Positions 2,807-2,852 of a stretch of DNA of 44,404 nt are shown one piece after another (the stretch's first letter is position 1; every line of letters begins with the position of its first letter). Location: IMG/VR virus record IMGVR_UViG_2874951433_000009, one strand, 5' to 3'. This stretch comes from a virus (Duplodnaviria > Heunggongvirae > Uroviricota > Caudoviricetes). The notes under the pieces are model-generated. The model was not told the origin of the DNA and did no database searches. It saw only the letters and a program-made list of their open reading frames with translations. The position numbers and the translations under genes were made by a program.

Positions 2807-2852
2807 TGGTGCCGATAATAGGAGTCGAACCTACGACCTTCGCATTACGAAT
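2807..2852 (-). other. att core: 46-nt copy of the 3' end of tRNA-Thr(CGU) (thrW-like), anticodon loop to CCA; not a complete tRNA
   Basis: rc of 2807-2852 = attcgtaatgcgaaggtcgtaggttcgactcctattatcggcacca, i.e. anticodon loop (CGT), T-arm GGTTCGACTCC and acceptor 3' strand plus CCA; the flanking sequence at 2853+ does not contain the D-arm or 5' acceptor strand. Confidence 0.8.

What the first reader, a model, noticed from the sequence alone, without database searches (positions are those of the whole stretch)
2807..2852. att core flanked by phage DNA on both sides (attP-like arrangement) in an IS-rich chromosomal context
The 46-nt tRNA-Thr(CGU) 3' copy lies between int (transcribed toward it) and the gtr operon (transcribed away from it). 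That is the arrangement of the phage attP (gtr-side arm, core, int-side arm). In a simple prophage, the int-side junction should carry a complete tRNA (attL) and the gtr side should abut bacterial DNA (attR). Here the 5' half of the tRNA is absent on the gtrA side. This implies a tandem or circularly joined prophage, an excised form, or IS-mediated scrambling that recreated the junction.
Basis: partly seen in the sequence, partly recalled or inferred. Interest (0 to 1): 0.6.

Follow-up and report, generated by a model that had tools for sequence, protein, structure and literature searches.

The report
Hybrid att scar between stacked prophages
The 46-base tRNA-Thr fragment is a real phage attachment core, but it is the scar between two different phages that integrated one after the other at thrW in Shigella flexneri, later cut and shuffled by IS600; this kind of junction is already known.

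Summary
Window 2807-2852 is an exact, unique copy of the 3' 46 nt of thrW (tRNA-Thr CGU) on the minus strand. It lies between an intact integrase gene and gtrA-gtrB-gtrV, and no 5' tRNA half follows it.

It is not the attP of one phage. The gtr-side arm is 199/201 identical to phage SfV attP. The int-side arm is SfX/HK-type: 100% identical to SfX over 403 nt, with an integrase only 55% identical to SfV Int. No sequenced phage joins the two arms.

The same junction type occurs in three other settings:
- the laboratory SfI-SfX tandem lysogen;
- a natural SfII-SfX tandem;
- S. flexneri 5b strain 8401 and relatives, where xis and a lambdoid early region still precede int.

The window is 100% identical to the chromosome of S. 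flexneri NCTC 9728 (CP026799.1). There the complete thrW ends 14 nt left of window position 1 and points the opposite way. It is followed by a 359-nt int fragment cut by IS600. That IS600 has no target duplication and abuts the intact int 8 nt before its ATG, so xis is gone.

Best reading: a tandem-prophage attR/attL hybrid, later rearranged by IS600. Novelty and interest are low.

The parts
1..359 (-). 3' 359 nt of an SfX-type int gene (int' fragment), cut by IS600. In the source chromosome the complete thrW ends 14 nt to the left of position 1 and points rightward (+).
   Evidence: Inverted repeat with 2434-2792, with 5 mismatches. L017 places thrW at 5579-5654 (+) and window position 1 at 5669. 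The same int'|IS600 joint is conserved in many S. flexneri genomes, normally next to gtrA-core.
360..1623 (-). IS600, 1264 bp (orfA 1257-1559, orfB 403-1221). Its flanks are CCC and GTT, so there is no target-site duplication.
   Evidence: RefSeq names the matching element an IS3-like IS600 family transposase. Pfam HTH_Tnp_1 and rve on the products. Ends and flanks.
1632..2792 (+). Intact SfX/HK-type tyrosine integrase gene (386 aa). Only 8 nt of its native upstream DNA remain, so xis is lost.
   Evidence: 98-99% nt identity to SfX, mEp213 and HK446 int. 100% to SfX over the last 403 nt including the core. 55% aa identity to SfV Int. In 8401 the xis gene (PF12728) precedes it. Homology to 8401 starts at 1624.
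2793..2806 (.). 14-nt spacer between the int stop codon and the core (CTTATTGATTTAAA); start of the P' arm.
   Evidence: Same spacer after thrW in attL loci and in the SfX attP.
2807..2852 (-). 46-nt att core, the 3' part of thrW. The CCA end is at 2807 and the anticodon-loop end at 2852.
2853..3053 (+). SfV-type P arm, the gtrA upstream region.
   Evidence: 199/201 identical to the phage SfV attP P arm. SfV homology starts at 2789.
3054..5586 (+). gtrA (3054-3416), gtrB (3413-4336) and gtrV (4333-5586): the O-antigen glucosylation operon of SfV.
   Evidence: 98.6% identity to SfV U82619, where the genes are annotated gtrA, gtrB and gtrV. Pfam PF04138 and PF00535.
5637..5674 (+). Position corresponding to the rho-independent terminator annotated after gtrV in SfV. 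Coordinates were transferred by offset and are approximate.
   Evidence: SfV annotation; the sequence ccccccc-gaaactta-gggggg is visible.
5709..21818 (-). SfV-type myovirus late region, from tail fibre assembly to portal and a terminase remnant. It is cut at 21818 by an IS600 end.
   Evidence: 97-98% identity to SfV, SfI and SfII. Gene content. IS600 end flank.
21819..24051 (.). IS cluster: an IS600 piece in inverted orientation (21819-22655), an IS629-like element (about 22662-23967) and an 85-bp IS600 end (23967-24051). The 837-bp piece forms an inverted repeat with 787-1623.
   Evidence: The same cluster is present in 8401.

Best explanation
The core at 2807-2852 is a hybrid junction between two prophages. 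On one side it is the right-end attachment site (attR, P arm) of an SfV-type serotype-converting myovirus. On the other side it is the left-end arm (attL, P' arm plus int) of a resident SfX-type prophage.

Such a site forms when a second thrW-specific phage integrates into the thrW copy at the left end of a prophage that is already there. Integration splits the incoming attP, so its gtr end comes to lie against a 46-nt core followed by the resident phage's int. This origin is inferred from the anatomy and from parallel cases.

In the S. flexneri NCTC 9728 lineage, IS600 later removed xis and everything beyond it on the int side. It joined the intact int head-to-head to the chromosome's own thrW-int'-IS600 unit. 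As a result the real thrW and this core are now inverted repeats about 2.8 kb apart (shown). The exact order of events is not resolved.

With no xis and no native int promoter region, the site is most likely a fixed recombination scar (inferred). The arm next to it still serves as the upstream region of the gtrABV operon. The core could at most act as a secondary landing site for other thrW-specific phages.
For: 1. The arms have different origins. SfV matches window 2789-5650 at 98.6% but not the int gene, and the P arm is 199/201 identical to SfV attP. The int, spacer and core (2450-2852) are 100% identical to SfX and 98-99% to HK542, mEpX2 and mEp213, and all these matches stop at the core. 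Int here is 55% identical to SfV Int.
2. No record in the phage collection covers the whole junction.
3. A laboratory tandem lysogen has the same architecture. SfI integrated at the attL of SfX gives gtrIA-core-intX, with the sequence shown in the supplement (PMC3306764).
4. A natural tandem exists in scaffold KN150717.1. L025 and L026 lie about 20 kb apart and, in locus orientation, read yaiC-IS600-int'-core-gtrA-gtrB-gtrX-tailspike and injection genes ... lambdoid early region-xis-intX-core-gtrA-gtrB-gtrII-SfII tails.
5. The identical junction, 99.97% over 14 kb, occurs in 8401 and at least three other assemblies (L014, L016, L018), with xis and a lambdoid early region upstream of int and no IS600 there.
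6. The window is 100% identical to chromosome CP026799.1, with thrW 14 nt outside the left end and inverted.
7. IS600 has unmatched flanks, CCC and GTT. Its left joint with the int' fragment is the conserved S. flexneri joint that normally follows gtrA-core.
Against: In a plain tandem array the complete thrW should sit next to SfV's own int, in direct orientation with this core. Here thrW is followed by the int' fragment and IS600, which is the empty-site configuration, and it is inverted. SfV's int, early region and most of its terminase gene are absent. Its late region is instead joined through an IS cluster to an old P22-like remnant. At least one further exchange (att by att, or IS by IS) must therefore be assumed, and I could not reconstruct it. 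I could not see the thrW side of 8401. The IS600-bridged layout was seen in only one assembly among those read.
Confidence: 0.75

Rival explanations
1. It is a true attP of a single mosaic phage with SfV-type late and gtr genes and an SfX-type int-xis module. The attP was regenerated by excision, or by tandem double lysogeny of that one phage, and was kept in the chromosome because the circle was recaptured by IS600 homologous recombination.
For: The genome holds both reciprocal products expected from excision. One is an empty-looking attB, thrW-core-int'::IS600. The other is an attP-like site, gtrA-core-int. In each, the int 3' region carries the unmixed allele pattern seen for that copy elsewhere: TCCGC for the fragment and CTTAT for the intact gene. 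In 8401 the order early region-xis-int-core-gtrABV-tails reads like a circularly permuted phage. Lambdoid phages are mosaic, and the identical GtrV protein travels with other integrases elsewhere.
Against: No phage record has this arm combination. Sequenced SfV, SfI, SfII and SfIV all match only from the core onward, not across this int, and SfV's own int is only 55% identical. In KN150717.1 the same int, with a lambdoid early region upstream of it, lies about 20 kb from a P22-like (SfX-type) right end carrying tailspike and gtrX, consistent with one SfX prophage next to SfII. That is the tandem situation made in the laboratory.
Confidence: 0.12
2. The junction was created in this strain by recombination between an ordinary attL (thrW-int) and an ordinary S. 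flexneri attR (gtrA-core-int'::IS600) after an IS600 inversion had placed them in inverted orientation. The exchange was either Int-catalysed at the core or homologous within the 419-bp repeat, and it swapped the arms.
For: The two sites are 419-bp inverted repeats, 98.8% identical, around IS600 and the 5' part of int. The arms are swapped relative to the common S. flexneri arrangement. The unmixed alleles would fit an exchange inside the core or spacer.
Against: The same gtrA-core-int junction already exists in 8401-type genomes, which have xis and no IS600 at that place. It therefore predates the strain-specific IS600 joint.
Confidence: 0.06
3. It is an assembly artefact: repeats (IS600, int copies, att cores) were joined wrongly.
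For: The region is full of repeats of 0.4-1.3 kb. The IS600-bridged layout was seen in one assembly only.
Against: The core with both of its arms is reproduced in several independent assemblies: CP000266.1, JANXIZ010000001.1, UGYR01000001.1, a JGI contig and an IMG/VR contig. The arms extend for kilobases of unique sequence on both sides.
Confidence: 0.03

Closest known systems
SfI-SfX inter-prophage junction in the laboratory lysogen S. flexneri 036_1d (Sun et al. 2011, PMC3306764)
   Same: Same architecture and nearly the same sequence: the gtrA upstream arm of an SfV-like myovirus, the 46-nt thrW core, a 14-nt spacer and the intX 3' end.
   Different: In 036_1d SfI is complete, thrW sits at its left end in direct orientation, and SfX follows intact. 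Here the upstream phage is SfV, cut by IS elements; the SfX-type phage is reduced to int; and thrW is inverted next to an int fragment.
attP of phage SfV (U82619)
   Same: Identical core, and a P arm 199/201 identical with the gtrA-gtrB-gtrV operon next to it.
   Different: SfV attP is followed by SfV's own int (P' arm TTACACATCATTAG...) and xis. Here the P' arm and int are SfX-type, 55% aa identity to SfV Int.
SHI-O serotype-conversion region of S. flexneri 5b strain 8401 (Nie et al. 2006, PMC1550401)
   Same: Same gtrABV genes, the same roughly 15 kb of SfV late genes, the same IS cluster and P22-like remnant, and the same int-core-gtrA joint.
   Different: 8401 keeps xis and a lambdoid early region upstream of int. 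NCTC 9728 has IS600 there, followed by the int' fragment, thrW and proA. The paper describes the SfV remnant and an inversion around SHI-O but, in the passages retrieved, not the att junction.
Ordinary S. flexneri attR of gtr prophages (for example 2457T): gtrA-core-int'::IS600-IS629-yaiC
   Same: Here too the far side of the core is phage-derived, an SfX-type int 3' end, so an attP-like look is the rule in this species.
   Different: There the int is only the 359-nt fragment (allele pattern TCCGC) cut by IS600. Here it is the full-length gene (allele pattern CTTAT), and the fragment sits next to thrW instead.

Membership tests
Phage attP (thrW-specific P22/SfV/SfX group) | Core identical to the 3' end of thrW | tested here: met
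   Exact 46-nt match, unique in the window.
Phage attP (thrW-specific P22/SfV/SfX group) | Both arms belong to one phage genome, with the cognate int and xis next to the P' arm | tested here: not met
   The P arm is SfV and the P' arm with int is SfX-type. No phage record spans both. xis has been replaced by IS600.
Phage attP (thrW-specific P22/SfV/SfX group) | Lies on a free, circular or packaged phage genome | tested here: not met
   100% identical to a 4.5-Mb chromosome, with proBA-thrW on one side and, in related contigs, T6SS remnants, dnaQ and rnhA on the other.
Phage attP (thrW-specific P22/SfV/SfX group) | Recombines with attB when Int and IHF are supplied | not testable with these tools
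   Needs an in vivo or in vitro recombination assay.
Tandem-prophage hybrid att site (attR of phage 1 joined to attL arm of phage 2) | P arm and right-end genes of phage 1 on one side of a partial tRNA core | tested here: met
   SfV P arm, gtrABV and SfV tail genes.
Tandem-prophage hybrid att site (attR of phage 1 joined to attL arm of phage 2) | P' arm and int of a different phage 2 on the other side | tested here: met
   SfX-type int, 100% identical to SfX over 403 nt and 55% to SfV Int.
Tandem-prophage hybrid att site (attR of phage 1 joined to attL arm of phage 2) | The body of phage 2 continues beyond int | tested here: inconclusive
   Not in this window, where IS600 lies 8 nt before the ATG. 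It does continue in 8401-type genomes and in KN150717.1, which carry the same junction.
Tandem-prophage hybrid att site (attR of phage 1 joined to attL arm of phage 2) | Complete tRNA at the outer left end of phage 1, next to phage 1's int and in direct orientation | tested here: not met
   thrW is inverted and followed by int'::IS600. No SfV-type int is in the window. Later rearrangement has to be assumed.
Simple prophage attL | Complete tRNA gene followed by int | tested here: not met
   Only the 3' 46 nt are present at 2807-2852. The true attL-like site lies just outside the window.
Simple prophage attR | P arm and core followed by non-phage chromosomal DNA | tested here: not met
   The core is followed by an intact phage int. 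The plain E. coli form is seen in L055 and L020.

The most novel reading that the evidence does not exclude
The intact SfX-type int, the attP-like hybrid core and the attB-like thrW lie in inverted orientation within 2.9 kb. Together they could form a one-way switch. If Int were expressed, integrative recombination between the two sites would flip the 2.6-kb segment between the two cores. That would restore an attL-like thrW-int site and an attR-like gtrA-core-int'::IS600 site. Without Xis the flip could not be reversed. RecA acting on the 419-bp repeats, or on the 837-bp IS600 repeats that bracket 20 kb, could give mixed isomers in a culture.
Probability: 0.06. Interest if true: 0.4.

Novelty: new member of a known kind. 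Interest (0 to 1): 0.15.

Why it matters
The finding matters mainly for annotation and for reading Shigella serotype-conversion loci. A partial thrW copy with phage DNA on both sides does not indicate an excised or live phage. It marks where serotype-converting phages have stacked at one tRNA site and have then been fixed by IS elements. The junction records that the serotype 5 lineage carried an SfX-type prophage next to SfV, which fits the 5a/5b typing ambiguity of NCTC 9728. It also explains why gtrV is stably retained: there is no xis and no partner att site in direct orientation.

Tried and rejected
- **Second core or tRNA in the window.** I looked for a second core copy or a complete tRNA and found none.
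- **Uninformative look-up.** The lysozyme protein (41616-42149) was looked up to walk beyond the right end. The protein is far too common and the result was uninformative.
- **Metagenome scan.** I used the single metagenome scan on the thrW-int' joint, hoping to reach the rest of an 8401-like JGI contig. It returned only an unrelated E. coli-like contig.
- **thrW side of 8401.** I could not reach it. Only window-encoded proteins can be looked up, and 8401 was not among the places shown for the int' fragment.
- **Paper on serotype 1a gene organisation.** I searched for the 1999 paper, which I recalled as possibly describing an attP-like chromosomal arrangement. It is not in the library, so I make no claim from it.
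- **Single IS600 by IS600 inversion.** I considered one such inversion of a canonical array as the whole explanation and rejected it. It would put the complete int next to thrW and the fragment next to gtrA, the opposite of what is seen. The far end also leads to IS2, T6SS remnants and dnaQ rather than to xis-IS600-yaiC.
- **P22-like late genes as the body of the SfX-type phage.** Probably not. The block is 98.7% identical to a remnant in a strain with a different gtr type (CP026765.1), and its gene lengths differ from the SfX-like phage in KN150717.1.

Full report
**1. What is in the sequence**

The 46-mer at 2807-2852 (+) occurs once in the window, and none of 100 shuffles produced a match. 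It is the reverse complement of the last 46 nt of tRNA-Thr(CGT), as seen in complete thrW genes of related loci. It equals the att core published for SfI, SfII, SfV, SfX and P22 (PMC3636060). The CCA end is at 2807 and the anticodon-loop end at 2852.

ARAGORN and Rfam find no tRNA in the window. The bases to the right of 2852 are not tRNA sequence. To the left, after a 14-nt spacer, lies the stop codon of an intact 386-aa integrase ORF (1632-2792) that reads toward the core. To the right lie gtrA, gtrB and gtrV, which read away from it.

**2. The two arms come from different phages**

Phage SfV (U82619) matches window 2789-5650 at 98.6% and continues through the tail genes to the portal gene. 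Its homology stops at the int stop codon. The 201-nt arm between the core and gtrA is 199/201 identical to the SfV attP arm.

The int gene does not match SfV at megablast level. At the protein level the two integrases are 55% identical. The int 3' part, spacer and core (2450-2852) are 100% identical to the SfX int-attP record. They are 98-99% identical to HK542, mEpX2, mEp213 and HK75, and every one of these matches ends exactly at the inner end of the core.

No record in the phage collection covers both arms. In tRNA orientation the site reads P(SfV)-core-P'(SfX type). SfV's own attP reads P(SfV)-core-P'(SfV), beginning TTACACATCATTAG.

**3. Where the window comes from, and where thrW is**

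Window 1-15586 and 14039-35769 are 100% identical to CP026799.1. This is the chromosome of S. flexneri NCTC 9728, recorded as 5b and typed 5a in silico (PMC9455713).

In that record frsA, crl, phoE, proB and proA are followed by a complete thrW on the + strand. It ends 14 nt before window position 1. The window starts at the stop codon of a 359-nt int 3' fragment on the minus strand (1-359). The fragment differs from the intact copy at 5 positions. It is cut by IS600 (360-1623).

The other end of IS600 lies 8 nt before the ATG of the intact int. Its 3-bp flanks, CCC and GTT, do not match, so it is not a simple insertion. The local picture, in window orientation, is:

proA> thrW> <int' [IS600] int> <core gtrA> gtrB> gtrV> <SfV tails

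The thrW 3' part with spacer and int', and the int 3' part with spacer and core, form a 419-bp inverted repeat.

**4. The same junction elsewhere**

- *Laboratory tandem lysogen.* Sun et al. infected an SfX lysogen with SfI and found SfI integrated at the attL of SfX. The published inter-prophage sequence is gtrIA arm, core, intX (PMC3306764). This is the architecture seen here.
- *Natural tandem.* In scaffold KN150717.1, loci L025 and L026 lie about 20 kb apart. In locus orientation they read yaiC-IS600-int'-core-gtrA-gtrB-gtrX-tailspike and injection genes, then lambdoid early region-xis-int-core-gtrA-gtrB-gtrII-SfII tails.
- *Serotype 5 relatives.* In S. flexneri 5b strain 8401 and at least three other assemblies, the sequence from 8 nt before the int ATG through gtrABV and the SfV tails is 99.97% identical to the window. 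Upstream of int they have xis (PF12728) and a lambdoid early region (recT, N, cI, cro), not IS600. The junction is therefore older than the IS600 joint of NCTC 9728.

**5. The species background**

The int'|IS600 joint is conserved in S. flexneri. It normally follows gtrA-core, or the SfX arm plus core, on the yaiC side. It is the usual far flank of attR in this species. Sun et al. draw IS600, IS629 and a putative int between thrW and yaiC.

An att core with phage-derived DNA on both sides is thus the rule in S. flexneri. Two features are special here. The far side carries a full-length int, with allele pattern CTTAT as in ordinary thrW-int attL sites. The fragment, with pattern TCCGC, sits directly after thrW as in an unoccupied site.

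2457T carries yet another hybrid: SfX-type P arm, core, SfII/V-type int. In plain E. coli the attR of an SfV-like prophage reads gtrA-core followed by a roughly 70-nt int relic, a LysR-type gene fragment and paoD.

**6. Wider context of the window**

- The SfV late region ends at 21818 against an IS600 end.
- An IS600/IS629-like cluster follows at 21819-24051, carrying the IS3-family frameshift pseudoknot at 23516-23632.
- A P22-like late-gene block follows (24052-36710). It is also present, at 98.7% identity, in a strain with a different gtr type (CP026765.1). It is cut by another IS3-family element.
- Next come a lambdoid lysis cassette on the other strand and an IS2-like element.
- Related contigs continue with T6SS remnants, dnaQ and rnhA.
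- 8401 shares everything from the P22-like block to the int.
- Nie et al. report about 15 kb of SfV in SHI-O and an inversion around SHI-O (PMC1550401).

**7. Explanation**

The most likely origin of the junction is tandem lysogeny. An SfV-type phage integrated at the thrW copy at the left end of a resident SfX-type prophage, producing gtrA-core-intX. IS elements then removed SfV's left half.

In NCTC 9728, IS600 replaced xis and the rest of the SfX-type phage and joined int to the thrW-int'-IS600 unit in inverted orientation. The steps that left thrW in the empty-site form, and that inverted it, are not resolved. An IS600-adjacent deletion from an 8401-type layout, IS600 by IS600 recombination, or an att by att exchange all remain possible.

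A single IS600 inversion of a canonical array does not fit (see tried and rejected). With xis and the native upstream region of int gone, and with no partner att site in direct orientation, excision is not expected. This last point is inferred, not tested.

**8. Rivals**

- *True attP of one mosaic phage, kept after excision and IS600 recapture.* It is favoured by the co-occurrence of an attB-like and an attP-like site with unmixed alleles. It is disfavoured by the absence of any such phage and by the natural and laboratory tandems.
- *Junction created in this strain by recombination between inverted attL and attR.* It is contradicted by the older 8401-type junction.
- *Assembly error.* It is unlikely for the core and its arms, which recur in independent assemblies. 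The IS600-bridged layout itself rests on one assembly.

**9. Verdict**

The site is a further example of a known kind, a hybrid att junction between stacked thrW prophages in the IS-scrambled SHI-O region. Interest is low.

Noticed in passing
window 4333-5586; loci L011, L012, L013, L019, L020: The identical 417-aa GtrV protein occurs in other genomes at other chromosomal places and with other phage backbones. It lies next to a different 385-aa integrase near a formate/nitrite-transporter-family gene (L011), next to a biotin-synthesis gene cluster (L013, L019), and at a plain thrW attR beside pao genes (L020). The gtrV cassette evidently moves between phages with different integration modules.
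   Followed up: no
L055 (NZ_CP139337.1) about 5990-6068, compared with window 2738-2806: In E. coli the supposedly bacterial flank of the thrW attR begins with a roughly 70-nt degenerate relic of an SfX-type int 3' end and spacer. Even the native site therefore carries an old prophage scar.
   Followed up: partly
window 787-1623 and 21819-22655: These 837-bp inverted IS600 repeats (4 mismatches) bracket the 20.2-kb int-core-gtrABV-SfV segment. Homologous recombination between them would invert the whole block and put the core in direct orientation with thrW.
   Followed up: no
window 21819-24051: This IS cluster consists of two IS600 pieces in opposite orientation around an IS629-like element, with the ALIL pseudoknot at 23516-23632. 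It joins the SfV terminase remnant to the P22-like gp16 gene. The identical cluster is in strain 8401.
   Followed up: partly
window 24052-36710 and 36711-37959: The P22-like late-gene block (terminase to gp16) is 98.7% identical to a remnant in S. flexneri CP026765.1, a strain with a different gtr type. It looks like an old remnant, not the body of the SfX-type phage. It is cut by a 1249-bp IS3-family element.
   Followed up: partly
L028 (S. flexneri 2457T, AE014073.1), core at 7327 (+): 2457T has a different hybrid att site: SfX-type P arm, core, full-length SfII/V-type int. It lies head-to-head across IS600 with gtrA-core-int'. This mirrors the layout in the window.
   Followed up: no
window 38575-43119 (+) and 43176-44404 (-): A lambdoid lysis cassette (DUF1327-family protein, lysozyme and a 172-aa protein in the window; holin and Rz in related contigs) lies on the strand opposite to the P22-like block and ends at an IS2-like element. 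Related contigs continue with T6SS remnants, dnaQ and rnhA in the orientation opposite to proBA. The region between dnaQ and thrW is therefore rearranged relative to the E. coli K-12 gene order, which I cite from memory.
   Followed up: partly
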